UHGV virus genome: UHGV-0356291
Direction: 5' to 3' (one strand)
From: a virus
Length of the DNA: 13,275 bases
Positions within the stretch are counted from its first letter, which is position 1. Each line of letters begins with the position of its first letter. Below, piece after piece: positions 2-13,275 of the stretch. Made by a program: the position numbers and the translations under genes. The notes under the pieces were generated by a model. The model was not told where the DNA came from, did not search any database, and saw nothing but the letters and a program-made list of their open reading frames with translations.

Positions 2-160
2 GAGCGATTGAACAAACAGTTCGCACAACTTGAAAGCGAGCGTCAGTCGTTCGAGCCGCACTGGCGCGAGTTGAGTGATTACATCAACCCGCGTGGTTCC
101 CGCTTTCTGACTTCTGAGGTTAACCGTAACGATCGACGCCACAACTTAACAGGGCCATAA
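2..160 (+). CDS. portal protein, N-terminal fragment (5'-partial; start codon upstream of window); terminated by TAA 158-160 in the present orientation
   Basis: Frame 2 is open from position 2 and reads ERLNKQFAQLESERQSFEPHWRELSDYINPRGSRFLTSEVNRNDRR, resembling from memory the N-terminal region of T7 gp8 (YERLKNDRAPYETRAQ...). Same frame as the 215-1633 ORF. Confidence 0.6.
   Translation, partial: ERLNKQFAQLESERQSFEPHWRELSDYINPRGSRFLTSEVNRNDRRHNLTGP
94..139. repeat. left arm of 46-bp perfect inverted repeat (partner 289-334)
   Basis: Exact reverse complement of 289-334, checked base by base; mismatch at 93/335 and 140/288 defines the ends. Confidence 0.95.
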
Positions 161-214
161 TCCATCATTTCAGGATCTGGCGTAGCCAGGCGAAACCACG
201 GACGCGCGGGGCTT

Positions 215-1633
215 GTGATGCCTGACATCATGCCGCTGGCGAGAGTGCGCGCCGCCATAGTCCCGGTCGAATCAATAATGCGTGTATTGCGTCGATCGTT
301 ACGGTTAACCTCAGAAGTCAGAAAGCGGGAACCAGGAAGCCTCGGCACATACAGCACTGGTGCAATGGCAGTGCTGGAGGATGACGAGGACATCATTCGC
401 ACAATGCCATTCCCGATAGGCAGTTACTACCTGGCTAACTCACCTCGTGGCAGTGTGGACACCTGTTTTCGCAAGTTCTCTATGACTGTTCGTCAGCTTG
501 TTCAGGAGTTCGGGCTAAATAACGTCAGCGAATCCGTAAAAAGCATGTGGGAAAGCGGAACCTACGAGAAGTGGATTGAAGTGATGCATTCGGTTTACCC
601 GAACATTGACCGCGATACATCGAAGCTGGATAGCAAGAACAAGCCATTCAAATCGGTTTATTACGAGGTTGGTGGCGATAACGACAAGTTGTTGCGTGAG
701 TCCGGATTCGATGAGTTTCCAATTATGGCTCCGCGCTGGGAAGTTAACGGCGAAGATGTTTATGGATCATCATGCCCGGGTATGCTGGCGCTTGGACCTG
801 TTAAGGCATTGCAGCTTCTCCAGAAGCGCAAGTCGCAGTTGATTGATAAAGCCACCAATCCGCCGATGGTTGCTCCGACTTCCCTCAAGAATCAGCGTGC
901 CTCCCTTCTTCCTGGCGACATCACGTATATCGATCAGATTACTGGTCAGGATGGTTTCAGGCCTGCTTATCTGGTTAACCCCAGTACAGCAGATTTGGTG
1001 GCAGACATTCAGGACACCCGTCAAATCATTAACAGCGCCTACTTTGTCGATCTGTTCATGATGTTGCAGAACATCAATACCCGCTCGATGCCTGTTGAAG
1101 CGGTGATCGAAATGAAAGAAGAAAAACTTCTGATGTTGGGGCCGGTTCTGGAGCGTCTGAACGACGAATGTCTTAATCCTCTCATTGACCGCGCTTTCTC
1201 GATGATGGTGCGTAAAAACATGCTGCCGCCACCGCCTGACGCGATGGAAGGTATGCCCCTGAAGGTCGAATACATTTCCGTCATGGCTCAGGCGCAGAAG
1301 TCTATCGGCCTGTCCAGTCTGGCGTCTACGGTCAACTTCATTGGTCAACTTGCGCAAGCGAAACCAGAAGCTCTCGACAAACTCAACGTTGATCAGGCGA
1401 TCGATGCATTCGCTGATATGTCCGGAGTGTCTCCAACCGTCATTGTTCCGCAGGAACAGGTTGAGCAGGCTCGCCAGCAACGGGCACAGCAACAACAGCA
1501 GCAACAAATGATGGCGATGGGGATGGCGGCGGCACAGGGTGCCAAGACGCTAAGCGAAGCTAAAACTTCGGATCCGAGTGTTTTGTCAGCTATGGCGAAT
1601 GCAGTTAGTGGTCAGGGTGGGCAATCACAATGA
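215..1633 (+). CDS. portal (head-to-tail connector) protein, T7 gp8-like; 5' region disrupted, so ATG 215 is probably not the native start
   Basis: 472-aa ORF. C-terminus QQRAQQQQQQQMMAMGMAAAQGAKT matches the Q-rich ...QQSMQMGMDNGAAALAQGMAAQ tail I recall from T7 gp8. No Shine-Dalgarno before ATG 215; first ~25 codons are antisense of the flipped segment. Confidence 0.8.
   Translation: MMPDIMPLARVRAAIVPVESIMRVLRRSLRLTSEVRKREPGSLGTYSTGAMAVLEDDEDIIRTMPFPIGSYYLANSPRGSVDTCFRKFSMTVRQLVQEFGLNNVSESVKSMWESGTYEKWIEVMHSVYPNIDRDTSKLDSKNKPFKSVYYEVGGDNDKLLRESGFDEFPIMAPRWEVNGEDVYGSSCPGMLALGPVKALQLLQKRKSQLIDKATNPPMVAPTSLKNQRASLLPGDITYIDQITGQDGFRPAYLVNPSTADLVADIQDTRQIINSAYFVDLFMMLQNINTRSMPVEAVIEMKEEKLLMLGPVLERLNDECLNPLIDRAFSMMVRKNMLPPPPDAMEGMPLKVEYISVMAQAQKSIGLSSLASTVNFIGQLAQAKPEALDKLNVDQAIDAFADMSGVSPTVIVPQEQVEQARQQRAQQQQQQQMMAMGMAAAQGAKTLSEAKTSDPSVLSAMANAVSGQGGQSQ
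289..334. repeat. right arm of 46-bp perfect inverted repeat (partner 94-139)
   Basis: Exact reverse complement of 94-139. Confidence 0.95.
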
Positions 1634-1926
1634 CAGATTACGAAGACGATCAACTGAAAGAAGAAAACGCCCGTAAGCAACGTGACATGGCACAGCGTGA
1701 AATTGATGACATTTGCTTTGTCATGAGCAGTGAACAGGGGCGTCGCGTTGTCTGGTCGGTGCTGGAGAAAGGCCGTGTGTTTTCCGCTATCTCACCGATG
1801 GACGCTATGGCTATGGCATTTAATGAGGGGCAACGCAATCTGGCGCTGGAACTGTTTCAGCGCGTTATGGCGCATTGCCCTGAACAGTATTTGAAGATGG
1901 CCAAAGAGGCCAGTGAACAGGAGTGA
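1630..1926 (+). CDS. hypothetical protein (98 aa), between portal and scaffold
   Basis: ATG 1630 overlaps portal stop (ATGA); stop TGA 1924-1926 overlaps next gene; acidic/charged protein; no function recognised. Confidence 0.55.
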   Translation: MTDYEDDQLKEENARKQRDMAQREIDDICFVMSSEQGRRVVWSVLEKGRVFSAISPMDAMAMAFNEGQRNLALELFQRVMAHCPEQYLKMAKEASEQE

Positions 1927-1928
1927 TC

Positions 1929-2624
1929 ATGAATTTATTTGAGCGTTTGCTGTATCGCCGTCTTTGCAATGAGCAACCAGTCGATGGTGGAGCAGCTCCG
2001 GCTGCGTCAGAACCGTCAGCGCCTGCAGGTGATAACCCTGCTCCAGTTGGTGATCCATCACAACCGGAAGGTGATAAGCCACAACCTGTTGCTGATGGCG
2101 ATAAACCTGCTGATGACAAAAAGCCTGAAAACGATAAGCAGGATGAAAAAAAGGACGGCGATAAAACAGAGGGTGCGCCTGAGAAGTACGAGTTTCAGGC
2201 TGCCGAAGGCGTAGAGCTGGATACAGAAGCGTTGAAGGAATTCGAGCCGGTGGCGCGAGAACTAAACCTGACCAACGAGCAAGCGCAAAAGCTGGTTGAT
2301 GCTTATCCGAAGATTCTGGCAGGTGTTCAGCAGCGCCAGGCAGAAGCCTGGCAGAAAACAACCGAGCAGTGGGCTGCTGATGTAAAAGCTGACAAAGAAA
2401 TCGGTGGCGACAAGTTGATTTCTAACCTTAGCGCCGCACAGCGTGCGCTTGACCAGTTCGGGACACCTGAACTCAAAGAATATCTGAACACCACCGGGCT
2501 GGGTAATCACCCTGATCTGGTCAAAACGTTCGTGAAAATCGGAAAGGCGATGTCTGAAGATGGCATGGTCACCGGTGGTAATGAAGGCCAGCGTAGTGCG
2601 GCCGAAGTGCTCTATGGCAAATAA
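1929..2624 (+). CDS. putative scaffolding (capsid assembly) protein
   Basis: AGGAG at 1919-1923, 5 nt before ATG 1929 (six-frame track starts at in-frame GTG 1923). Highly acidic, Pro/Asp/Lys-rich N-terminal half, helical-looking C-terminal half, sits directly upstream of the capsid gene as T7 gp9 does. Confidence 0.6.
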   Translation: MNLFERLLYRRLCNEQPVDGGAAPAASEPSAPAGDNPAPVGDPSQPEGDKPQPVADGDKPADDKKPENDKQDEKKDGDKTEGAPEKYEFQAAEGVELDTEALKEFEPVARELNLTNEQAQKLVDAYPKILAGVQQRQAEAWQKTTEQWAADVKADKEIGGDKLISNLSAAQRALDQFGTPELKEYLNTTGLGNHPDLVKTFVKIGKAMSEDGMVTGGNEGQRSAAEVLYGK

Positions 2625-2638
2625 GAGAGGAAATGACA

Positions 2639-3625
2639 ATGGCTGTTAAAGGCTTAACTGCGCTAACGCTGGCTGACTGGGGTAAGCGCGTCGATCCAAA
2701 CGGGAAAGTCGATAAGATTATCGAGCTTCTCGGTCAAACTAACCCGATCCTTCAGGATATGCCTTTTGTCGAAGGGAACCTTCCTACCGGACACCGAACC
2801 ACCATTCGTTCTGGTTTACCTTCAGCTACCTGGCGTTTGCTGAACTATGGCGTACAGCCAAGCAAATCAACCACAGTACAGGTAACCGATTCCGTTGGCA
2901 TGCTGGAAACCTATGCGGAAGTCGATAAGTCACTGGCTGATCTGAACGGCAATACCGCCGAATTCCGCCTGTCTGAAGACCGCGCATTTATTGAAGCGAT
3001 GAATCAGCAGATGGCGCAGACGCTGTTTTATGGTGATTCCAGCGTTAACCCTCAGCAGTTTATGGGACTGTCCTCCCGCTATTCCAGCCTGTCTGCGGGT
3101 AATGCTCAGAACATCATTGATGCTGGTGGCACGGGTACAGATAACACCTCAATCTGGTTAGTGGTGTGGGGCGAAAACACCGTGCATGGCATCTTCCCGA
3201 AAGGGCAGAAGGCTGGCATCCAGATGGAAGATAAAGGCCAGGTGACACTGGAAGATGCTAATGGCGGCAAGTACGAAGGCTATCGCACCCATTACAAATG
3301 GGATAACGGACTTGCTCTGCGTGACTGGCGTTATGTTGTTCGCATTGCAAACATCGATGTCAGCAATCTTTCAGAACCTTCCTCTGCCGCAAATATTGCG
3401 AAGTTGATGGTTAAAGCACTGCATCGCATTCCAAATCGTGGCATGGGTCGCCCGGTGTTCTACATGAACCGCACTGTAGGCCAGGCTCTTGATCTGCAAT
3501 CTCTGGAGAAAACATCTCTGGCGATCAGCGTAAAAGAGACAGAAGGCGAGTGGTGGACTTCATTCCGTGGTGTACCAATCCGTGAAACTGATGCGCTTCT
3601 GGAAACAGAAGCCCGCGTGGTGTAA
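2639..3625 (+). CDS. putative major capsid protein (~328 aa)
   Basis: GAGG at 2627-2630, 8 nt before ATG 2639 (ATG 2633 is too close to the SD). Position after scaffold and size close to T7 gp10A (~345 aa from memory); called by synteny, no specific motif recognised. Confidence 0.6.
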   Translation: MAVKGLTALTLADWGKRVDPNGKVDKIIELLGQTNPILQDMPFVEGNLPTGHRTTIRSGLPSATWRLLNYGVQPSKSTTVQVTDSVGMLETYAEVDKSLADLNGNTAEFRLSEDRAFIEAMNQQMAQTLFYGDSSVNPQQFMGLSSRYSSLSAGNAQNIIDAGGTGTDNTSIWLVVWGENTVHGIFPKGQKAGIQMEDKGQVTLEDANGGKYEGYRTHYKWDNGLALRDWRYVVRIANIDVSNLSEPSSAANIAKLMVKALHRIPNRGMGRPVFYMNRTVGQALDLQSLEKTSLAISVKETEGEWWTSFRGVPIRETDALLETEARVV

Positions 3626-3641
3626 CGCCTGTTATTAACCT

Positions 3642-3661
3642 GTGGGTCGTAACAGACCCAC
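3642..3661 (+). promoter_or_regulatory. RNA stem-loop just downstream of capsid stop (GTGGGTC-gtaaca-GACCCAC)
   Basis: 7-bp GC-rich perfect stem with 6-nt loop, 17 nt after TAA 3623-3625; no U-tract follows, so not a classic intrinsic terminator. Confidence 0.5.
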
Positions 3662-3676
3662 TAATGGAGAAAGAAG

Positions 3677-4114
3677 ATGATCACCGACAAACTGTTGATG
3701 TTCTCCGAAGCACAGGCGGTAACTGATACCGCGGCTTCTACTGACGTAATCGATCTCGGTCCAATTGACGGAAAACGTCGTGATATCGGCGTGGGTTACC
3801 CGCTTGAGTTTTGGGCGCTGGTTAACACAGCCGCCGCAGCAAGCGGTGATGCAACTGTAAACATCCAGTTGCAGACGAGTGAGGATAACAGCTCATGGTC
3901 CACTATTTATGATAGTGGCGCACTGGCAAAGGCCACCCTGACAGCAGGTAAGCGAGTTGTTTCTGCAAAGGTGCCAGCCGGTGTTCAGCGATATCTGCGT
4001 GTTAACTACTCCGTCGCAACTGGCCCACTAACGGCTGGCAAATTCACTGCGGGTATCAATCTTGATGTTGATGCCAATACGCCGTATCCGATCCGCTCAA
4101 AAGTAACTGGTTAA
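3677..4114 (+). CDS. hypothetical virion-associated protein (145 aa)
   Basis: GGAG 3666-3669, 7 nt before ATG 3677; Ala/Thr/Gly-rich beta-like composition; no homolog named. Confidence 0.6.
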   Translation: MITDKLLMFSEAQAVTDTAASTDVIDLGPIDGKRRDIGVGYPLEFWALVNTAAAASGDATVNIQLQTSEDNSSWSTIYDSGALAKATLTAGKRVVSAKVPAGVQRYLRVNYSVATGPLTAGKFTAGINLDVDANTPYPIRSKVTG

Positions 4115-4124
4115 GGTGATATTG

Positions 4125-4460
4125 ATGTCAGGTGAGAAACCAAGATACCGCGTTCTGCGCCTCTCTCATATCCATAACACTCTGTGGCCGGAGGGGGCAG
4201 AAATCGAATACGAAGGTGAGCCTGGTAGCGCACTGGAACCTGTTAACGATGCAGCCAGACAGGCAAAAGCAAAAGTTGCAGGAAAAGAGTCAATGGCAGC
4301 AACCAGCACCAAAATCATCAACGATGTGTCAGATGATGGTGAACTGGATAAGCTCCGTGAAGAGTACGAATTGCTCTTTAACGAGAAGCCACACCATAAC
4401 GCCAAAGCCGAAACGCTCCGCGAGAAGATCGCAGATAAGCGTAAAGAACTGGGCGTGTAA
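4125..4460 (+). CDS. hypothetical protein (~112 aa)
   Basis: AAGGTG 4113-4118, 6 nt before ATG 4125 (track starts at GTG 4116); charged C-terminal half; followed immediately by an intrinsic terminator. Confidence 0.6.
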   Translation: MSGEKPRYRVLRLSHIHNTLWPEGAEIEYEGEPGSALEPVNDAARQAKAKVAGKESMAATSTKIINDVSDDGELDKLREEYELLFNEKPHHNAKAETLREKIADKRKELGV

Positions 4461-4478
4461 GCCTCGCGGATCAGACAA

Positions 4479-4498
4479 GGGGCTTCGGCCCCTTTATT
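4479..4498 (+). terminator. rho-independent terminator (GGGGC-ttcg-GCCCC then TTTATT)
   Basis: GC stem with UUCG tetraloop and U-rich tail, 19 nt after stop 4458-4460; stem can extend to AAGGGGC/GCCCCTT from 4477. Confidence 0.6.
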
Positions 4499-4510
4499 GC
4501 AGGAGTGTAT

Positions 4511-4834
4511 ATGGAACTCGTAAACCTCAAAACCGGCACTGACAGCTACCAGGATGAGAGCGGAGAAACCAGAACTCGCGATGAATACCCGTGGGGGCTG
4601 TGCATCACTCTTAATAACGACACATTGAATAAGCTGAAGGCGCAACCTCAGGGCGTCGGAACAGAAGTGATGATAACTGCAAAGGCTGTTATTCGAGGCC
4701 TGTCTGCCAGAGAAACTGACGATGGTGTTAATCGCAGCGCCGATCTGCAGATCACTGATATGGCGATCGCTCCTGTTTCCGGGGATGTAGAAAAATCAGC
4801 GGCTGAAACCCTGTACGGCAATGGGGGTGAGTAA
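4511..4834 (+). CDS. hypothetical protein (~107 aa) with scaffold-like C-terminal tail
   Basis: AGGAG 4500-4504, 6 nt before ATG 4511 (track starts at GTG 4505); C-terminus ...VEKSAAETLYGNGGE parallels scaffold C-terminus ...GQRSAAEVLYGK; stop TAA overlaps next ATG (TAATG). Confidence 0.6.
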   Translation: MELVNLKTGTDSYQDESGETRTRDEYPWGLCITLNNDTLNKLKAQPQGVGTEVMITAKAVIRGLSARETDDGVNRSADLQITDMAIAPVSGDVEKSAAETLYGNGGE

Positions 4835-5439
4835 TGGCCTCTGTAGTAGAGATCTGCAATCGTGCGCTGTCCAATATTGGCAATAGCCGCAGCATTAACA
4901 GCCTGACGGAAGCCAGCAAGGAAGCGGGGGAATGTTCGCTGCACTTTGAGGCCTGCCGTGATGCTGTGCTTTCTGATTTTGACTGGAACTTTGCTACCAA
5001 ACGCGTGGCGCTGGCAGATACGAGCAATCCACCGCCTGACTGGGAATATGCGTATCAGTACCCGTCCGATTGTCTGCGCATTACTGAAATTATGCTTCCT
5101 GGTGTACGCAATCCAACAGCAGCAATGCGCGTTCAGTACGAAGTAGGTGTAGACACCAACGGAACAGGAAAGTTGATCTACACAGACCAGCCTCAGGCAT
5201 GGCTCAAGTATGTCTCTCGCGTTACAGATGTGAACATGTTTGATGCCATTTTTATGGAGGCGTTGGCCTGGCGTCTTGCGGCAGCTATTAACATGGCGCT
5301 GACTGGGAATGCAGACCTCGGTACGTTTGCCCTCAATATGTACAATCGCGTGATTCTTAGTGCTGGCTCGCATAGCCAGAATGAATCACAGGAACCACAG
5401 CCACCGGTTGACGAGTTTACCATTGCGAGGTTGTCCTGA
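4834..5439 (+). CDS. putative tail tubular protein A (T7 gp11-like)
   Basis: 201 aa versus ~196 aa for T7 gp11 (from memory); N-terminal ICNRALSNIGNSRSINSLTEA resembles T7 gp11 AVNDILASIGEPPVSTLEG; followed by a ~800-aa gene as in T7. Confidence 0.55.
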   Translation: MASVVEICNRALSNIGNSRSINSLTEASKEAGECSLHFEACRDAVLSDFDWNFATKRVALADTSNPPPDWEYAYQYPSDCLRITEIMLPGVRNPTAAMRVQYEVGVDTNGTGKLIYTDQPQAWLKYVSRVTDVNMFDAIFMEALAWRLAAAINMALTGNADLGTFALNMYNRVILSAGSHSQNESQEPQPPVDEFTIARLS

Positions 5440-7910
5440 TGGCTATCAGTTGGATACAGCCCAGCTTTGCCGGTGGTGAGATTGGACCGTCGTTGTACGG
5501 TCGTATCGACATGGCGAAGTACCAGGTGGCATTGCGCAAGTGCGATAACTTTATCGTGCGGCAGTATGGCGGCGTTGAGAATCGACCTGGTACGCGTTTT
5601 GTCGGTGCCGCCAAATACCCAAATCGGAAATGCCGCCTGATCCCGTTCCAGTTCTCGACGGTTCAGACCTATGCTCTGGAGTTCGGACACCAGTACATGC
5701 GCGTTATCAAAGATGGTGCGTTGGTGCTGAACAGCAGCAATGTTATTTATGAAATTTCCACGCCATATACTGAAGCCGATCTGTTCCGAATTAAATTCAC
5801 GCAAAGCGCAGACGTGCTTACGCTGGTTCATCCGGCATACCCGCCGAAAGAGTTGCGCCGCTATGCGCATGACAACTGGCAACTGGTTGATGTGGTAACG
5901 AAGAACGGGCCATTTGAAGATATCAATATTGACGAGTCAGTGACGGTTTATGCCAGCGCCAGCACCGGGACAATTACGTTAACGGCAAGCGCCTCTATTT
6001 TTGGCGCGGAGCAGGTAGGCAAATTGTTCTATCTGGAACAGCCTGCAGTGGATTCTGTGCCGGTATGGGAAACCAGTAAGAGTACGTCGATTGGCGATAT
6101 TCGCCGTGCAGACAGTAACTACTATCGCGCCGTTACAGCAGGCAAAACAGGTACTTTGCGCCCTTCGCATACAGAAGGCACATCATGGGATGGCTGGGGC
6201 GGATCCGGTGATGATGATACTGGCATTGAGTGGGAGTATCTGCACAGTGGTTTTGGCATTGCCCGTATCACTGCTGCAAATGGCACTACTGCAACTGCTG
6301 AGGTGATTTCCTATATCCCTTCGCAGGTCGTTGGCGAGGATAATGCCAGCTATAAATGGGCTAAATATGCCTGGAACAGTGTTAATGGTTATCCTGGCAC
6401 TGTTGTTTATTATCAACAACGTCTTTACTTCGCCGCATCGACTGCGTTTCCTCAGACTATCTGGGCCAGCCGTACCGGGGATTATAAGGATTTTGGCAAA
6501 AGCAATCCTACGCAGGATGACGACAGAATTATCTACACCTATGCCGGACGTCAGGTTAATGAGATCCGCCACCTGATTGATGTTGGTTCTCTGGTGGCGC
6601 TGACTTCCGGAGGTGAGTACGTCATCACCGGCGACCAGAACAAAGTGTTAACCCCATCATCATTTGCATTCAGCTCTCAGGGATCAAATGGCTCAAGCAA
6701 CGTCCCGCCAATTGCCGTGGCGAATATTGCTCTGTTCGTCCAGGAGAAAGGCAGCGTTGTCCGTGATCTGGCCTACTCATTCGATGTTGACGGCTATCAG
6801 GGGAACGACCTGACCATCCTTGCCAATCATCTTTTTCAGAAGCACAGCATTGTTGACTGGTGCTTCTCGATTGTCCCTTACTCCAGTGCCTTCTGCATTC
6901 GTGATGACGGTAAATTACTGGTGATGACCTATTTGCGTGATCAGCAGGTTTTTGCATGGGCACCACAATCCAGTACCGGAAAATATGAAAGCACATGCAG
7001 TATCAGCGAAGGCAATGAAGATGCGGTGTATTTCGTCGTTAACCGAACCGTTAACGGGCAAACAGTGAGATACATCGAGCGACTGTCCAGCCGTTTATTT
7101 ACCAGCGATGAAGATGCTTTCTTTGTTGATTCTGGCCTTAGCTATGATGGAAGAAATACGTCTGACAGAACGATGACCATCACTGGTGGTTCTGGTGAAT
7201 GGGATTACCATGCGGAATATACAATCAGTGTTTCTGGTGGTGCGTACTTCACCAGTAGTGATGTCGGCGCGCAACTACAGTTCCCTTATACCGGAACTGA
7301 TCCTGATACTGGCGATGAAGTGTCAAAAGAATTACGTTGCGACATTATTTCTGTAACCAGCAATACCGCTGTAGTGGTTCGTGCTAACAGGAACGTCCCG
7401 CCATCCCTCAGGAATGTGGCCACCACGAACTGGCAGATGGCGCGCCGGACATTTGGCGGCTTGTCTCATCTTGAAGGCCAGACCGTAAACATCCTCTCTG
7501 ATGCGAACGTGGAACCACAGAAAGTGGTTTCCGGAGGTGCCGTCACGCTGGAATCTCCGGGGGCTGTAGTGCACATCGGCCTGCCAATAACTGCTGAATT
7601 CGAAACACTGGATATCAACATTAACGGACAGGAAACGCTGCTGGACAAAAAACAGGTGATCCCGTCCGTTACTCTGGTTGTGAATGCCAGTCGCGGCATC
7701 TGGGCGACTACGCCCGGCGGTAAATGGTACGAATATCCACAGCGTGAATTCGAGTTCTACGATGATCCTGTTGATGATGCTACCGGAAAAGTAGAAGTGA
7801 AACTGGACAGTAACTGGGGCAAAAACGGACGTGTAAAAATCCGTCAGCTTGATCCGTTGCCGCTGTCTGTTCTTGCCGTTATTCCTCGCCTTACTGTTGG
7901 GGGATTCTGA
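5439..7910 (+). CDS. putative tail tubular protein B / nozzle (T7 gp12-like)
   Basis: 823 aa versus ~794 aa for T7 gp12 (from memory); start overlaps upstream stop (TGATG); N-terminus MAISWIQPSFAGGEIGP loosely resembles T7 gp12 MALISQSIKNLKGGISQQP; assignment mostly by size and order. Confidence 0.5.
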   Translation: MAISWIQPSFAGGEIGPSLYGRIDMAKYQVALRKCDNFIVRQYGGVENRPGTRFVGAAKYPNRKCRLIPFQFSTVQTYALEFGHQYMRVIKDGALVLNSSNVIYEISTPYTEADLFRIKFTQSADVLTLVHPAYPPKELRRYAHDNWQLVDVVTKNGPFEDINIDESVTVYASASTGTITLTASASIFGAEQVGKLFYLEQPAVDSVPVWETSKSTSIGDIRRADSNYYRAVTAGKTGTLRPSHTEGTSWDGWGGSGDDDTGIEWEYLHSGFGIARITAANGTTATAEVISYIPSQVVGEDNASYKWAKYAWNSVNGYPGTVVYYQQRLYFAASTAFPQTIWASRTGDYKDFGKSNPTQDDDRIIYTYAGRQVNEIRHLIDVGSLVALTSGGEYVITGDQNKVLTPSSFAFSSQGSNGSSNVPPIAVANIALFVQEKGSVVRDLAYSFDVDGYQGNDLTILANHLFQKHSIVDWCFSIVPYSSAFCIRDDGKLLVMTYLRDQQVFAWAPQSSTGKYESTCSISEGNEDAVYFVVNRTVNGQTVRYIERLSSRLFTSDEDAFFVDSGLSYDGRNTSDRTMTITGGSGEWDYHAEYTISVSGGAYFTSSDVGAQLQFPYTGTDPDTGDEVSKELRCDIISVTSNTAVVVRANRNVPPSLRNVATTNWQMARRTFGGLSHLEGQTVNILSDANVEPQKVVSGGAVTLESPGAVVHIGLPITAEFETLDININGQETLLDKKQVIPSVTLVVNASRGIWATTPGGKWYEYPQREFEFYDDPVDDATGKVEVKLDSNWGKNGRVKIRQLDPLPLSVLAVIPRLTVGGF

Positions 7911-8374
7911 TGATCGATGTTCAAATTATTCCCGCAACCGAAGAGCATCTTCAGATGATTTTGCCGGATGTTCGTCAGGCTGATATTGACGAACTGTATG
8001 CGGTATCACTGATGACTACCGAAGATGCGCTGCGTGTTGGTCTGCGTACTGCGACTATGGCCTGGTCAGGATTTGCGAACGGAGAACTGGTAACCATGTT
8101 TGGCGTATCTCCGGCGTCAATGATCGGTGGCAATGGTACGCCCTGGCTGGTCGGAACCAGCCGCATCGAAAAATATCAGAAGACATTTCTTCGCCACTGC
8201 CGCCCTGTATTGCAGCAGATGCTGGCAGTTTATCCGCGCCTGGAAAACTATGTCGACGAGCGAAACCATGTTGCCAAAGCATGGCTGCACTGGCTTGGAT
8301 TCAGGCTTGAAGAAGCCGCGCCTTATGGTGCTCTTGGTCTTAATTTCCACAGATTTCACATGGAGAGAAAATAA
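7910..8374 (+). CDS. hypothetical protein (154 aa), T7 gp13-like position
   Basis: Start overlaps upstream stop (TGATG); size near T7 gp13; no motif recognised. Confidence 0.6.
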   Translation: MIDVQIIPATEEHLQMILPDVRQADIDELYAVSLMTTEDALRVGLRTATMAWSGFANGELVTMFGVSPASMIGGNGTPWLVGTSRIEKYQKTFLRHCRPVLQQMLAVYPRLENYVDERNHVAKAWLHWLGFRLEEAAPYGALGLNFHRFHMERK

Positions 8375-8391
8375 TGTGTAACCCAGCCATC

Positions 8392-8494
8392 GCTTTGGTT
8401 GCCGTCACAGTGGCATACGCTGATCCGCTTCAATATTCCCACGATTGATTGAATCCTGTGCCTGAGCTTCAGCAATTTCAGCATTCCGATCAGC
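8392..8494. repeat. rotated inverted copy of 8551-8651 (two blocks: 8392-8416 and 8417-8494)
   Basis: 8392-8416 is the reverse complement of 8551-8575 and 8417-8494 is the reverse complement of 8574-8651, both exact. Confidence 0.95.
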
Positions 8495-8495
8495 T

Positions 8496-9041
8496 ATGGC
8501 TGACTGGTATTTTGCCTGCTTGCTCTGGCTGTACATTGACGCGGCTGTGGATGCCACTGTGACGGCAACCAAAGCTGATCGGAATGCTGAAATTGCTGAA
8601 GCTCAGGCACAGGATTCAATCAATCGTGGGAATATTGAAGCGGATCAGCGTCGTCGTGAAATGCGTCAACGCTCAGGCACTGCGGCGGCCACTATGGGGG
8701 CTACCGGTGCGGAATTAAGTAGCGGAACAGCTCTTGACGTTTTTGCGGATAATGCTCAGTTCGGCACTCTTGATGCGTTAACGACAGTGAATAATGCTCA
8801 GCGTGAGGCATATGGGTATCAGGTTCAGGGAATGAATGCTCAGGCACAGGGGGCTGCTGCTCAGTCGGCTGCTAAATCATCGATGACCAGCACTTTGTTA
8901 ACGGCACCACTAAAAGCATACGGTGCATATAAGTTGGGTAGCGGAAGTATCAATCCGATTAGTAAGCAAGGAAACACGCCAATGTTATCTAACTCAGGTT
9001 TTATGAATTCTGACTCCCGATTCAAAATAGGAGGTTACTGA
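8496..9041 (+). CDS. putative internal virion protein (181 aa), T7 gp14-like position
   Basis: ORF with hydrophobic N-terminus (WYFACLLWLYIDAAV) and Ala/Gln-rich middle; no SD before ATG 8496 and in-frame TGA at 8463-8465; stop overlaps next ATG. Confidence 0.55.
   Translation: MADWYFACLLWLYIDAAVDATVTATKADRNAEIAEAQAQDSINRGNIEADQRRREMRQRSGTAAATMGATGAELSSGTALDVFADNAQFGTLDALTTVNNAQREAYGYQVQGMNAQAQGAAAQSAAKSSMTSTLLTAPLKAYGAYKLGSGSINPISKQGNTPMLSNSGFMNSDSRFKIGGY
8551..8651. repeat. in-gene partner of the upstream inverted copy 8392-8494
   Basis: Encodes in frame DATVTATKADRNAEIAEAQAQDSINRGNIEADQR of the 181-aa ORF, so this copy is the coding original. Confidence 0.95.
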
Positions 9042-11788
9042 TGCCTGTTGTTCCTACTACATCCGGACGCCAGGTGCAAAGTCGTGGTGTGCAAACCGGT
9101 GGTTTTCAGACCTTCGATGTTCCTCAAGCAGGTCAGGTGCTGGCGAATGTCGCAGATCAGTATGCGGTGGCATATGGTGAAGCCAGGCAGAAAGCGAATG
9201 TTGCTATGGCCCAGGAGGCGTTACTGCAATTTAACCAATTTGCAGATGACCAGATTAACAACCCTGAAAATGGGCTGATTTCTAAACAGGGTAAAAACGC
9301 TCTTGGTCAGAGTGACGCTGTTATGAAAAATATGCAGGAAAGGGCTCAGGCATTATTAGGCTCAATTCCTGAAAGTGAGGAAAGGAATAAATTATCCTTT
9401 CAACTCCAGCAGTCTATGCAGTCTTATTACAATCAGGCACGTCGATATGAAGTTGGGCAGTTTCAGCAATTCCAAGATCAAACGTATTTGTCAGGAAATG
9501 CATTGGCTGTCACTCAGTCTGCGGGGCTATATAGCGATAACCAAGCATTTGTCGATTTAGCCAAGCAGCGATTTGAATCTATTGATCAATACGCTGATGC
9601 GCATGGGCTTCCTGATGAGTGGCGTGTTCAGCAGAAAACTCAGCTCAAGGAACAAATGGGGCAGCAAGCATGGATAGGAAATATCGCTCAAAAATACAAC
9701 GAGTTTCTTCAGGTTAATGGAGAGCCAGGGGATCTTGATGGTGTGAGTCGTGCAATATCACATGGTAATTCATTGGATGCTCGTGGTTTACGTAATAATA
9801 ACCCCGGTAATATTGAAGCGAGCAAATCTAACCCGTGGGAAGGTCAGATCGGTAGCGATGGACGTTTTGCAACGTTTGCTACCCCTGAGCATGGAATCCG
9901 CGCGTTGGGTAAAAATATGTTGTCTTACCAGCGTCAAGGCTATGACACCGTTAGCGAGATTGTTAATCGCTATGCTCCGGCTAGTGATGGTAATAATACT
10001 GATGCTTATATTAGGGCATTGTGTGGTGAGCTTGGTGTTGGGGAGAATGATCAGCTTGATATCTCTAACCCAAAGACACTAGCTGCTTTATGTGCTGGGA
10101 TTATTAAACACGAAAATGGCAGTATGCCTTATAGCACCGAACAGCTTGAAACTGGTATCTCGGCAGCCCTTGGTCTAACTAACCTTGATTCACCTAAGCG
10201 TTATACGGGCAATGCGGCATTTGATGCTATGAGCCCTCAAATGCAAATACAGGCATTGAGGCAGGCTAATGAGCTGAGAAATCAGTACCGCCAGCAGTAT
10301 GCGGACCAGCTTAGCACCGTAGTTAAAGATGCATATTCAGCCCTTGATGAAGGATTGAAACCTGAGAAGTTACCTTCTGAGGACGATTTTATCCGGGCCA
10401 ATGGTCCGCGCATTGGCGCTATGAAGTGGAAGGATATGCAGGCGCAGATACAATATGGAGGTGTCATTGGTGCCGCTAAAGACCTCACTCCAGAAGGACG
10501 GCAAGACATTCTTGAACGTTTACGTCCACAGGATCCAAACGCTCCTGGATTTGCAGCTAACCAGCAACGCTGGGAGAAAATGCAGGCCAAATTTAAAGAG
10601 ATGGATAGGGAGTGGGAGATTCAGCAGGGAAGAAACAGGTTCGTGTCTTCAATGCAAAATAACTTCCCGCTGGACCCGAACGACAAAAACAATCAGGCAG
10701 CGGTAGACCGTTATTTCGCGCAGGATATCGCGCCTTCGTTTTCCATATCTGATCCGCAGAGCATCAATACACTGGTCACCGTCACAACTAAAAGCGGCAT
10801 GATACCAACTCAGATTAAAACAATGCTTAACAGTGGAGCGACATCAAGAGATCCTGCGCTGGTTGTCCCGATGGCAAAATTCTACGGTCAGTTATTCGAT
10901 AATAATCCGGCGGCAGCGGCAACACTTGATAAAAGTACGATGGCATTTTACGGCAAGGTTTACGATTATTCCCGCGCTGGCGTGCCGGAGGATAAGGCTG
11001 TTGATATGGCTTACAGCCAGGTGTTCCAACAGGATGACCGAATGAAACAGATGCTTTCCACTGCCATGCGAGACAAAAAATATGTCGCGGCGAGGGCAAC
11101 TGCTGCACAAAATAACGCCAGCAGTCTGACTTCCTTTGGTTCGTGGTCTCCGGATATTACCGATCCAGGAAAATCAAATGCGGCCTATCAGCGAGATTAC
11201 CAGACAATTTACGATGCTAACTTTGTACAGACAGGTGGCGATGCAGAACAGGCTGAGAAAATGACCAATGCCATGATCAGAACCACTTGGGGAGTTTCTA
11301 CGGTTAATGGCAAAGCAGAGGTTATGAAGTATGCACCTGAGGCATTGTACGGAGTAAATAATGGTGCTGGTAACTGGATACAGGGGCAGTGGGAGCAGGA
11401 AAAACGCGAGCTTAAATCAAAATCCTTTGGCGGTCCTCGCAGTGATACGGACTTAATACTTGTTTCTGATGGCCTTACGGCAAGGGATAGGAGTTATGCT
11501 GTTATGGTTTTACAGCCTGACGCAAACGGAGCGATAGAACCGAGAAATTATATTGGAGAAAATGGTCTCCCTGTTCGTTTCAAGCCGGATCAGCTGACAT
11601 CTCCAATGTACAGGCAAACCATTCAGTTCCAGCAACAGCGTGTTGATGAGGCTAGAGTGCGGAGAGAAGGCAATCCGCTGCCGCAGTTCAGCAATAAAGA
11701 TGGATATACTCCTCCAGATCTGACAAAACCATTCGGTTATGGTTCAGCCAATTACCTTCCGAGCAATATATACGCAGGGGGCAAATAA
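9041..11788 (+). CDS. putative internal virion / ejection protein (915 aa) with a conserved-looking RNNNPGNI...RYAP block
   Basis: Long ORF coupled to flanking genes (TGATG / TAATG); Gln-rich; position equals T7 gp15/gp16; lower GC than upstream genes. Confidence 0.7.
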   Translation: MPVVPTTSGRQVQSRGVQTGGFQTFDVPQAGQVLANVADQYAVAYGEARQKANVAMAQEALLQFNQFADDQINNPENGLISKQGKNALGQSDAVMKNMQERAQALLGSIPESEERNKLSFQLQQSMQSYYNQARRYEVGQFQQFQDQTYLSGNALAVTQSAGLYSDNQAFVDLAKQRFESIDQYADAHGLPDEWRVQQKTQLKEQMGQQAWIGNIAQKYNEFLQVNGEPGDLDGVSRAISHGNSLDARGLRNNNPGNIEASKSNPWEGQIGSDGRFATFATPEHGIRALGKNMLSYQRQGYDTVSEIVNRYAPASDGNNTDAYIRALCGELGVGENDQLDISNPKTLAALCAGIIKHENGSMPYSTEQLETGISAALGLTNLDSPKRYTGNAAFDAMSPQMQIQALRQANELRNQYRQQYADQLSTVVKDAYSALDEGLKPEKLPSEDDFIRANGPRIGAMKWKDMQAQIQYGGVIGAAKDLTPEGRQDILERLRPQDPNAPGFAANQQRWEKMQAKFKEMDREWEIQQGRNRFVSSMQNNFPLDPNDKNNQAAVDRYFAQDIAPSFSISDPQSINTLVTVTTKSGMIPTQIKTMLNSGATSRDPALVVPMAKFYGQLFDNNPAAAATLDKSTMAFYGKVYDYSRAGVPEDKAVDMAYSQVFQQDDRMKQMLSTAMRDKKYVAARATAAQNNASSLTSFGSWSPDITDPGKSNAAYQRDYQTIYDANFVQTGGDAEQAEKMTNAMIRTTWGVSTVNGKAEVMKYAPEALYGVNNGAGNWIQGQWEQEKRELKSKSFGGPRSDTDLILVSDGLTARDRSYAVMVLQPDANGAIEPRNYIGENGLPVRFKPDQLTSPMYRQTIQFQQQRVDEARVRREGNPLPQFSNKDGYTPPDLTKPFGYGSANYLPSNIYAGGK

Positions 11789-12957
11789 TGCCGATATATG
11801 AACAGGATCCTAAAGAGTTGCTTGGCGAGGGTATTCAGCAAATAGCAGCACCTGATGACAGTAATTTCTATATGGAAACACCTTCTTTGCTTTCTGCTGT
11901 GAACCCATTTACCAGTGATCAACGCGTTCAAAGGTCTAGACAAGCAGCATTTCGTATAGATAACACGCTGGGTAGCTTTATTGCCAGTGCTCCTTTCAGT
12001 CAGTTTGACAGGGTTGAAGGATATAACCCATTTGATAACGATGCAGCAGATATTAAAGGCTATGAAGATTTTGCAGATTCGTTTATCAACTCCGGTTCGC
12101 ATGAAGAAACAATGGCAATTAAACATCGAATCGATCAGCAGAGAGCTGACATGGAATACAATTCAGGCTTGGGATTTGCTGGTACAGTCTCTTCTGTAGC
12201 AATGAGATTAGCAGATCCATTCAATGCGATTTCTATGTTTATTCCGTTCGGCGCTGTCGTTCGTGGCGGTCGTATTGCAGAAACAGCCGGACGTTTTGCT
12301 TTAGCCAATGCTGCTGGCAGTGTTGCTTCAGAGGCCGCATTGCAGGCCACTCAGGAAGCTCGCTCACCGATGGAGAGCGTATCGAACGTTGTTGTTGATG
12401 CTCTCGTTGGTGGGATCCTTGGTGCTGGTGCACAGCTACTTGCTGGACCTAGCGCGCGCGAGGCAGTGGTTAACTCAGTAGGTAATCATTTGCGAGGTAT
12501 GGATTCTCCTCAAAGCATTGGTGCAGCTCAGGTTTTCAATACCACACTCGATCAGGAACAGCTTGCTGGACTTGGACTTGCTAACAAAACGTTGAGTGTC
12601 ACTCCTGCTGGCCGCTTGGCGCAATCACCATCTCTTGTTTCCCGTCAGATTAACCAGCAGCTTGCCGAAAATAACTATTTCTTCGCCAAAAATGATGAGG
12701 GGTTGGCTACGTTTACGGCAGTCGAGACTAAGATTAAGCAATACGACGCCATGCTTTATAAGCAGATGGAAGCTACTCGTGATGCTTACCAGCAGTACAG
12801 CAAATCTGTCAGCGCCCGCGGCGTGAAGAGGATGAACTTTATTGATTTCAATGAAGCTGTTGGCATGGCTATGCGCCGTGGTGATCAGAGTGATATTCCT
12901 GAGGTTTCACAAGCTTTTCAATTCGCTGACCTGCTTTGTCAGCACCTTTGGCACTAA
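11788..12957 (+). CDS. putative internal virion protein, apparently truncated at 389 aa by an inverted-duplication insert
   Basis: ATG overlaps upstream stop; ORF ends at TAA 12955-12957 inside the inverted copy; frame resumes at 13062 after the direct repeat. Confidence 0.65.
   Translation: MPIYEQDPKELLGEGIQQIAAPDDSNFYMETPSLLSAVNPFTSDQRVQRSRQAAFRIDNTLGSFIASAPFSQFDRVEGYNPFDNDAADIKGYEDFADSFINSGSHEETMAIKHRIDQQRADMEYNSGLGFAGTVSSVAMRLADPFNAISMFIPFGAVVRGGRIAETAGRFALANAAGSVASEAALQATQEARSPMESVSNVVVDALVGGILGAGAQLLAGPSAREAVVNSVGNHLRGMDSPQSIGAAQVFNTTLDQEQLAGLGLANKTLSVTPAGRLAQSPSLVSRQINQQLAENNYFFAKNDEGLATFTAVETKIKQYDAMLYKQMEATRDAYQQYSKSVSARGVKRMNFIDFNEAVGMAMRRGDQSDIPEVSQAFQFADLLCQHLWH
12899..12914. repeat. 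direct repeat CTGAGGTTTCACAAGC, copy 1
   Basis: Identical to 13060-13075; both copies sit at the boundaries of the inverted copy. Confidence 0.9.
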
Positions 12958-13060
12958 TCCCTTGTATCCAGTTGGCAATTCGCCCTCTGAATTCAGTGCG
13001 GTCGGAAAGTATCTTATCGAACTTATAAATGCGGGGAAGATAACTCTTCGCCGTCACGAC
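12940..13060. repeat. inverted copy (121 bp visible) of 13155-13275
   Basis: Exact reverse complement of 13155-13275; may extend left to 12915 if the partner continues beyond the window end. Confidence 0.95.
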
Positions 13061-13075
13061 TGAGGTTTCACAAGC
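13060..13075. repeat. direct repeat CTGAGGTTTCACAAGC, copy 2
   Basis: Identical to 12899-12914. Confidence 0.9.
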
Positions 13076-13275
13076 AGCCGCCAGAATCCGCCCCATTTTT
13101 GAGACCACAAAAGCCCGTATGCAGGAATTGGGGATCCTTCCTGAGGATATCGATGTCGTGACGGCGAAGAGTTATCTTCCCCGCATTTATAAGTTCGATA
13201 AGATACTTTCCGACCGCACTGAATTCAGAGGGCGAATTGCCAACTGGATACAAGGGATTAGTGCCAAAGGTGCTG
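13062..13275 (+). CDS. continuation of the 11788 gene (3'-partial, runs off window)
   Basis: Frame 3 open from 13062 to window end: EVSQAAARIRPIFETTKARMQELGILPEDIDVVTAKSYLPRIYKFDKILSDRTEFRGRIANWIQGISAKGA; begins with the same EVSQA as the upstream direct-repeat copy. Confidence 0.5.
13155..13275. repeat. downstream partner of inverted copy 12940-13060 (coding orientation)
   Basis: Exact reverse complement of 12940-13060; lies in the open frame continuing the last gene. Confidence 0.95.

What the first reader, a model, noticed from the sequence alone, without database searches (positions are those of the whole stretch)
12899..13275. Inverted duplication of at least 121 bp plus a 16-bp direct repeat truncates the last gene
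12940-13060 is the exact reverse complement of 13155-13275, and the repeat runs off the window end. CTGAGGTTTCACAAGC occurs at 12899-12914 and again at 13060-13075. The 389-aa ORF stops at TAA 12955-12957 inside the inverted copy. Deleting 12915-13075 (161 bp) makes the frame read ...DIPEVSQA then AARIRPIFETTKARMQELGILPEDIDVVTAKSYLPRIYKF... with no stop to the window end. The inverted copy plus one direct-repeat unit therefore behaves like an insertion of antisense downstream sequence into the gene. A long perfect inverted repeat with a 94-bp spacer is expected to be unstable in enterobacteria, so it is either very recent or not real.
Basis: seen in the sequence. Interest (0 to 1): 0.75.

Follow-up and report, generated by a model that had tools for sequence, protein, structure and literature searches.

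The report
Chimeric inverted patch, not a phage feature
The inverted duplication that cuts short the last gene is real in this sequence, but it is one of three blunt, flipped patches in an otherwise perfect copy of a common E. coli ST131 prophage, so it is almost certainly a sequencing, assembly or editing error rather than biology.

Summary
12940-13060 is the exact reverse complement of 13155-13275, a 16-bp direct repeat sits at 12899 and 13060, and the 389-aa ORF stops inside the inverted copy. Removing 12915-13075 restores, residue for residue, the first 442 aa of a 1,129-aa internal virion protein. That protein is intact in phage EC.W1-9 and in all 120 complete E. coli genomes that carry the region.

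The lesion is not unique in the window. The whole window is seven exact segments (0 mismatches) of an E. coli ST131 prophage, alternating + - + - + - +. Two more inverted patches (138-334 and 8417-8575) break the portal gene and the T7-gp14-family core protein gene.

All six junctions switch strand, jump only 80-271 nt, and share 0-3 nt of overlap, which is what blunt random joins give. That rules out a k-mer-graph mis-join and homology-guided template switching. It also fits phi29 amplification chimeras poorly.

Three gene-killing rearrangements with no point substitution in 13 kb, two of them within about 350 nt of the window ends, point to chimeric input or a post-assembly error. Verdict: not a real feature; low interest.

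The parts
11788..12957 (+). Truncated ORF of 389 aa. Residues 1-376 are the native N-terminus of the 1,129-aa internal virion protein. The last 13 aa (FQFADLLCQHLWH) and the TAA stop are read from the antisense patch.
   Evidence: reference CDS at L002 17717-21106; phrog_342 'internal virion protein with endolysin domain', E=1.9e-232
12899..12914 (+). Direct-repeat copy 1. This is the last 16 nt of forward segment S5 (reference 18828-18843).
12915..13059 (-). Inverted patch S6, the reverse complement of reference 19068-18924 (window 13156-13300 if the window were extended). Bases 12914 and 13060 are ambiguous between neighbouring segments. Junction J5 is at 12914|12915 and J6 at 13060|13061.
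13060..13075 (+). Direct-repeat copy 2. This is the first 16 nt of forward segment S7, which resumes 16 nt upstream of where S5 stopped (reference 18828).
13076..13154 (+). Native gene sequence. Together with 13061-13075 it forms the 94-nt spacer between the inverted-repeat arms.
13155..13275 (+). Native copy of the sequence duplicated in antisense. It runs off the window. In the reference the arm continues 26 nt further.
138..334 (-). Lesion R1: a 197-nt inverted patch (reference 6290->6094) inside the portal gene. It creates a 46-nt inverted repeat (94-139 / 289-334). Reference 6291-6364 (74 nt) is missing. A stop follows codon 52 of the window frame.
8417..8575 (-). Lesion R2: a 159-nt inverted patch (reference 14580->14422) inside the T7-gp14-family core protein gene. 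It creates inverted repeats of 25 nt (8392-8416 / 8551-8575) and 79 nt (8417-8495 / 8573-8651). The native start at 8374 now gives a 24-aa stub.

Best explanation
The 161-bp insert is a technical chimera, not part of the phage genome. The true sequence is the continuous ST131-prophage gene.

The window was built from, or edited into, seven pieces that alternate in strand. At each of three places a read-sized stretch (147-197 nt) of nearby sequence was pasted in as its reverse complement, through blunt joins.

Shown:
- The pieces, their exact reference coordinates and the junction anatomy.
- The absence of the lesions from every related genome searched.

Inferred mechanism:
- The junction k-mers cannot arise from assembling correct reads, so they were either already in the input or were introduced after assembly.
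- The most economical source is a join between the end of one read and the start of its mate. That would happen with paired-end spots left unsplit and concatenated as sequenced, or with a mis-oriented read or pair pasted in by an extension or gap-closing step.
- Such joins are always strand-switching and blunt, and they span only the unsequenced inner part of a fragment. Here the six spans are 79-270 nt.
- Deliberate or accidental in-silico editing would look the same.

The truncation of the gene, the HLWH tail, the 16-bp direct repeat and the long inverted repeat are all by-products. The forward path simply resumes 16 nt upstream of where it left.
For: 1. The window equals the prophage of E. 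coli MCJCHV-1 and at least 10 other ST131-type genomes, in seven exact segments with 0 mismatches over 13,043 reference bases. The segment strands are + - + - + - +.
2. There are three lesions of the same class in 13 kb. Each destroys an essential virion gene: portal, gp14-family core protein, 1,129-aa internal virion protein.
3. No complete E. coli genome has any of them. For the 776-nt query the best coverage is 81% in 120 of 120 genomes. For the whole window the best is 96% in 4 pieces. Phage EC.W1-9 has the intact 3,390-nt ORF.
4. All six junctions switch strand. The jumps are 151, 271, 134, 80, 226 and 95 nt. The overlaps are 2, 0, 0, 3, 1 and 1 nt, matching the distribution simulated for blunt random joins (56% with 0, 28% with 1, 16% with 2 or more).
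5. No parental homology or quasi-palindrome lies at any junction.
6. R1 lies within 334 nt of the window start and R3 within 362 nt of its end. The flanking terminal pieces are read-sized, 139 and 216 nt.
7. The junction 29-mer is absent from the viral, metagenome and genome contig collections. All four rearrangement-specific ORF products are absent from the gene index.
Against: - No reads are available, so junction support cannot be measured.
- I do not know that the window ends are contig ends.
- R2 lies mid-window, where a simple contig-tip artefact would not be expected.
- The path re-uses k-mers (14422-14446, 14502-14580, 18923-19043). Plain unitig assemblers do not do this, so the exact software step is unidentified.
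- Absence from public collections is weak evidence, because draft E. coli assemblies were searched only through exact protein products.
- A dead prophage is under no selection, so gene-killing lesions are not impossible in vivo.
Confidence: 0.86

Rival explanations
1. Amplification chimeras. The sample was amplified by strand-displacing polymerase (phi29 MDA or similar). Displaced 3' ends re-primed on the nearby opposite strand, and early chimeras dominated a low-template assembly. This is still an artefact, but one made in the tube rather than in software.
For: In MDA chimeras, 85% are inverted and they are preferentially intramolecular and proximal (PMC1855051). Here all six junctions are inverted and jump less than 300 nt.
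Against: At proximal inverted MDA junctions, 93.5% show at least 2 bp of priming complementarity. Here only 2 of 6 do, giving P = 2.4e-4 under that rate, while the overlap distribution fits blunt joins. Each lesion needs two switches within 147-197 nt, three times over, and then has to win the consensus.
Confidence: 0.08
2. Real, very recent private mutations. An ST131-like strain carries a decaying prophage that suffered three independent fold-back or strand-switch rearrangements in vivo, through replication template switching or illegitimate end joining.
For: The sequence is internally consistent. A cryptic prophage can tolerate loss of virion genes. The 94-nt spacer makes the inverted repeat less unstable than a true palindrome (own knowledge).
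Against: - Zero substitutions alongside three complex rearrangements in 13 kb.
- No microhomology or pre-existing quasi-palindrome at the junctions. E. coli template switching and alternative end joining normally use one, and E. coli lacks classical NHEJ (own knowledge).
- 0 of 117-120 related genomes show any such lesion.
- Two lesions hug the window ends.
Confidence: 0.05
3. A natural inverted-repeat element: a programmed invertible segment, an inverted terminal repeat, or a hairpin telomere of a linear phage genome captured at a contig end.
For: A perfect inverted repeat runs off the end of the window.
Against: - Both arms are ordinary coding sequence from the middle of a conserved virion gene.
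- The reference has no inverted repeat there.
- The prophage is integrated in the chromosome in 120 genomes, with the gene continuing 2 kb further.
- Only one orientation is ever seen.
Confidence: 0.01

Closest known systems
Chimeric, mis-oriented read joins carried into an assembly (unsplit paired-end spots, or gap-closing/extension errors)
   Same: Strand-switching blunt junctions. Jumps within one library fragment (80-271 nt). Read-sized patches. Location near sequence ends. Perfect identity of every piece to the true genome.
   Different: The software step is not identified. One lesion is mid-window. The path re-uses k-mers, which plain unitig assemblers avoid.
phi29 MDA inverted chimeras (Lasken & Stockwell 2007, PMC1855051)
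   Same: Inverted orientation, intramolecular and proximal partners, and an intervening deletion in lesion R1.
   Different: Junction complementarity of at least 2 bp is expected at 93.5% of such junctions and is seen at 2 of 6 here. Each lesion also needs a paired second switch.
De Bruijn-graph mis-joins at repeats under imperfect coverage (bioRxiv 10.1101/2022.01.20.477068)
   Same: A mis-assembly in a likely low-coverage, fragmentary assembly.
   Different: Those mis-joins require a shared (k-1)-mer at the join. The joins here share 0-3 nt, so the novel junction k-mers must pre-exist in the input.
In vivo quasi-palindrome or fold-back template switching (replication-based inverted duplications)
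   Same: The product topology: an inverted copy of nearby sequence plus a short direct duplication at the return point.
   Different: No pre-existing inverted homology at the switch points. Three events occur without any substitution. The lesions are absent from all relatives.

Membership tests
Programmed DNA inversion switch (Hin/Gin/Cin-type) | Inverted crossover sites flank the segment in the native genome | tested here: not met
   The reference prophage is collinear and has no inverted repeat at 18828-19069, 14422-14580 or 6094-6365. The repeats exist only in the window.
Programmed DNA inversion switch (Hin/Gin/Cin-type) | Both orientations are found among related genomes | tested here: not met
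   0 of 120 genomes carry the inverted patch. The best whole-window coverage is 96% in 4 forward pieces.
Inverted terminal repeat / hairpin telomere of a linear phage genome | The repeat lies at the genome terminus and is conserved in relatives | tested here: not met
   The arms lie at codons 385-505 of a 1,129-codon gene, which continues 2 kb further in EC.W1-9 and in ST131 prophages.
phi29 MDA inverted chimera | The junction joins opposite strands of proximal (<10 kb) sequence | tested here: met
   6 of 6 junctions switch strand, with jumps of 80-271 nt.
phi29 MDA inverted chimera | At least 2 bp of priming complementarity at about 93.5% of proximal inverted junctions | tested here: not met
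   Overlaps are 2, 0, 0, 3, 1 and 1 nt. P(2 or fewer of 6) = 2.4e-4 under the published rate, and the distribution fits blunt joins.
phi29 MDA inverted chimera | The sample underwent strand-displacement amplification | not testable with these tools
   The source record and its metadata were not found.
De Bruijn-graph repeat mis-join | The joined sequences share a (k-1)-mer at the junction | tested here: not met
   The maximum overlap is 3 nt.
In vivo quasi-palindrome template switch | A pre-existing imperfect inverted repeat or microhomology pairs the nascent end with the new template | tested here: not met
   Parental continuations at all six junctions show no complementarity beyond 0-3 nt. 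A nearby GATAT(T)CCTSAGG quasi-repeat is not used by J6.
Read-level or post-assembly chimera (mate concatenation, mis-oriented filler) | Blunt strand-switching joins that span no more than one library fragment, with every piece otherwise identical to the true genome | tested here: met
   Seven exact segments with 0 mismatches, jumps of 80-271 nt, and a chance-level overlap distribution.
Read-level or post-assembly chimera (mate concatenation, mis-oriented filler) | Junctions are unsupported, or supported only at read boundaries, in the raw data | not testable with these tools
   No reads are available.

The most novel reading that the evidence does not exclude
All three lesions are real and arose in vivo. 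In that reading, a homology-independent strand-switching process repeatedly pasted antisense copies of nearby sequence into virion genes of an ST131 prophage without leaving a single substitution. This could be aberrant repair of clustered breaks, or an unrecognised prophage-inactivating activity.
Probability: 0.04. Interest if true: 0.6.

Novelty: not a real feature. Interest (0 to 1): 0.07.

Why it matters
Biologically it does not matter. The gene is an ordinary, intact internal virion (ejection/core) protein in every other copy of this widespread ST131 prophage.

Practically it matters as a quality flag.
- The source sequence carries at least three chimeric patches.
- Its 389-aa, 181-aa and 472-aa 'proteins', its long inverted repeats and its apparent pseudogenes should not be used for annotation, for inverted- or terminal-repeat-based completeness calls, or for claims of prophage decay.
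- A simple screen would catch such records: perfect inverted repeats whose arms are both coding sequence, near sequence ends, in a contig otherwise identical to a reference.

Tried and rejected
1. Finding the source record.
- The junction 29-mer (and a second junction 30-mer in viral contigs) was searched in viral, metagenome and genome contig collections.
- The tail of the window was searched in plasmids.
- Four rearrangement-specific products were looked up in the gene index.
- All were negative, so provenance, read depth and library type remain unknown.

2. Restriction-site or proximity-ligation origin.
- J5 reads AAGCTT (HindIII), but neither parent has that site. Rejected.

3. Homology-mediated switch through the TTCCTGAGG / GATATCCTCAGG quasi-repeat near J6.
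- The junction lies outside it and the product lacks the shared motif. Rejected.

4. DGR or invertase activity in this BPP-1-like capsid module.
- There are no substitutions and no native inverted repeats. Rejected.

5. The graph-assembly literature describes repeat-mediated mis-joins only, which do not apply here.

6. The paired-end 'innie' geometry test has no discriminating power. Any strand-switch junction fits it when read from one strand or the other. Only the distance range and the bluntness are informative.

Full report
**Observation**

The region was read directly and scanned for repeats.
- 12940-13060 and 13155-13275 are 121 nt and 100% complementary, with 94 nt between them.
- CTGAGGTTTCACAAGC occurs at 12899-12914 and at 13060-13075.
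- The ORF 11788-12957 encodes 389 aa ending ...DIPEVSQAFQFADLLCQHLWH*.
- The self-BLAST E-value of the inverted repeat is 7.8e-65, so chance is excluded.

**Orthologues**

Megablast against phage records found one relative, Escherichia phage EC.W1-9 (PP445227.1). It matches in two pieces that together are 161 bp shorter than the query. Its annotation shows a single 3,390-nt CDS at this position.

The alignment shows the window carrying an extra block between two copies of the 16-mer.

Against 5,426 complete E. coli genomes, 120 carry the region. In all 120 the best place is a 615-bp, two-piece match covering 81% of the query, which is the uninterrupted gene.

Deleting 12915-13075 gives an open frame of 442 aa. 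It is identical to the N-terminus of the 1,129-aa reference protein.

With the reference used to extend the window, the inverted copy is 12914-13060, the reverse complement of 13155-13301 (147 nt). The reverse complement of 12899-12913 does not follow, so the direct repeat is separate from the inverted repeat.

**What the gene is**

- RefSeq names it 'DUF919 family protein'. That name rests on a marginal 46-residue Pfam hit (23.4 bits against a cut-off of 21). NCBIfam gives nothing.
- PHROGs gives phrog_342, 'internal virion protein with endolysin domain', E=1.9e-232.
- It follows a T7-gp14-family core protein gene and a 915-aa protein that matches endolysin, transglycosylase-type and head-protein PHROG families.
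- It is therefore the large ejection/core protein of a temperate podovirus-like virion module. The module's other genes include portal, protease, major capsid protein, Bbp16-type cement protein and capsid staple protein.

**The decisive finding: three lesions, not one**

BLAST of the window against itself and against EC.W1-9 showed two more perfect inverted repeats, at 94-139/289-334 and at 8392-8495/8551-8651.

The whole window matches a prophage of ST131-type E. coli (MCJCHV-1, O25b:H4-ST131 and others) at 100% identity, but only in four forward pieces covering 96%.

Exact extension against that reference (L002) resolves the window into seven perfect segments with no mismatch at all:

| Segment | Strand | Window | Reference (L002) |
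|---|---|---|---|
| S1 | + | 1-139 | 6001-6139 |
| S2 | - | 138-334 | 6290->6094 |
| S3 | + | 335-8416 | 6365-14446 |
| S4 | - | 8417-8575 | 14580->14422 |
| S5 | + | 8573-12914 | 14502-18843 |
| S6 | - | 12914-13060 | 19069->18923 |
| S7 | + | 13060-13275 | 18828-19043 |

- Lesion R1 puts a stop after codon 52 of the portal frame.
- Lesion R2 leaves a 24-aa stub of the gp14-family gene.
- Lesion R3 is the finding under review.
- The 16-bp direct repeat is simply the overlap between the end of S5 (18843) and the start of S7 (18828).

**Junction anatomy**

- All six junctions switch strand.
- The jumps are 151, 271, 134, 80, 226 and 95 nt.
- The overlaps are 2, 0, 0, 3, 1 and 1 nt.
- A simulation of blunt random joins gives 56% with 0 nt, 28% with 1 nt and 16% with 2 nt or more. 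The observed set is unremarkable under that model (P = 0.24 for 2 or more of 6 junctions reaching 2 nt).
- The parental sequences show no complementarity or quasi-palindrome at any switch point.

**Consequences for mechanism**

1. A de Bruijn-graph mis-join from correct reads needs a shared (k-1)-mer. With 0-3 nt shared, the novel junction k-mers must have existed in the input or been introduced after assembly.
2. phi29 MDA chimeras are 85% inverted and proximal. However, 93.5% of proximal inverted junctions show at least 2 bp of priming complementarity (PMC1855051). Only 2 of 6 do here, giving P = 2.4e-4. MDA is therefore possible but a poor fit.
3. In vivo template switching or alternative end joining in E. 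coli normally uses microhomology (own knowledge). None is present here.
4. Three complex rearrangements with zero substitutions in 13,043 reference bases, all in essential virion genes, and none present in 117-120 related genomes, is not what natural divergence looks like.
5. R1 and R3 lie within 334 and 362 nt of the window ends. The terminal and inverted pieces are all read-sized, at 139, 197, 159, 147 and 216 nt.

**Most likely origin (inference)**

The joins are blunt, always strand-switching, and span 79-270 unsequenced bases. That is the geometry of the end of one read joined to the start of its mate. It would be produced by paired-end spots left concatenated, or by a mis-oriented read or pair pasted in by an extension or gap-closing step. 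In-silico editing cannot be told apart from this.

I could not find the source record:
- The junction is absent from viral, metagenome and genome contig collections and from plasmids.
- The four lesion-specific products are absent from the gene index.

Read-level confirmation is therefore the missing step.

**Comment on the instability argument**

To my knowledge, SbcCD-dependent instability is severe for near-perfect palindromes and drops sharply with a central spacer of tens of bases. A 147-nt repeat with a 94-nt spacer is not by itself incompatible with life in E. coli. The artefact verdict rests on the multiplicity of lesions, the blunt junctions, the absence of substitutions and the absence from relatives. 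It does not rest on instability.

**Verdict**

- The feature is one of three chimeric patches in an otherwise exact copy of a common ST131 prophage.
- Novelty class: not a real feature. Interest is low.
- About 5% remains for genuine private mutations. About 4% remains for the more interesting reading of a real homology-independent strand-switching process.

Noticed in passing
window 138-334 (inverted-repeat arms 94-139 / 289-334): A second blunt inverted patch, the reverse complement of reference 6094-6290, lies inside the portal gene. 74 nt of reference sequence are missing, and a stop follows codon 52 of the window frame.
   Followed up: yes
window 8417-8575 (inverted-repeat arms 8392-8416 / 8551-8575 and 8417-8495 / 8573-8651): A third blunt inverted patch, the reverse complement of reference 14422-14580, lies inside the T7-gp14-family core protein gene. 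It leaves a 24-aa stub and a spurious 181-aa ORF (8496-9041).
   Followed up: yes
window 11788-13275; L002 17717-21106: The RefSeq name 'DUF919 family protein' for the 1,129-aa gene rests on a marginal 46-residue hit to a baculovirus Pfam family (23.4 bits against a cut-off of 21). PHROG phrog_342 (internal virion protein with endolysin domain, E=1.9e-232) is the meaningful assignment, so the public name is misleading.
   Followed up: partly
window 4507-4833: The capsid staple protein gene (gp10 in the ST131 prophage annotation) is present here and in ST131 prophages. Phage EC.W1-9 has only 10 nt at this position, between flanks that are 97-98% identical. This is a natural presence/absence of a capsid decoration gene.
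   Followed up: partly
window 8374-9041; L001 10679-11254: The gp14-family core protein is only 63% identical in amino acids between the ST131 prophage and EC.W1-9, although the surrounding genes are 97-99.7% identical in nucleotides. This is a mosaic allele replacement of one internal virion protein.
   Followed up: partly
L002 5259-5335 (upstream of the window, in the reference prophage): A tRNA-Arg gene is annotated on the opposite strand between the terminase and portal modules of the ST131 prophage.
   Followed up: no
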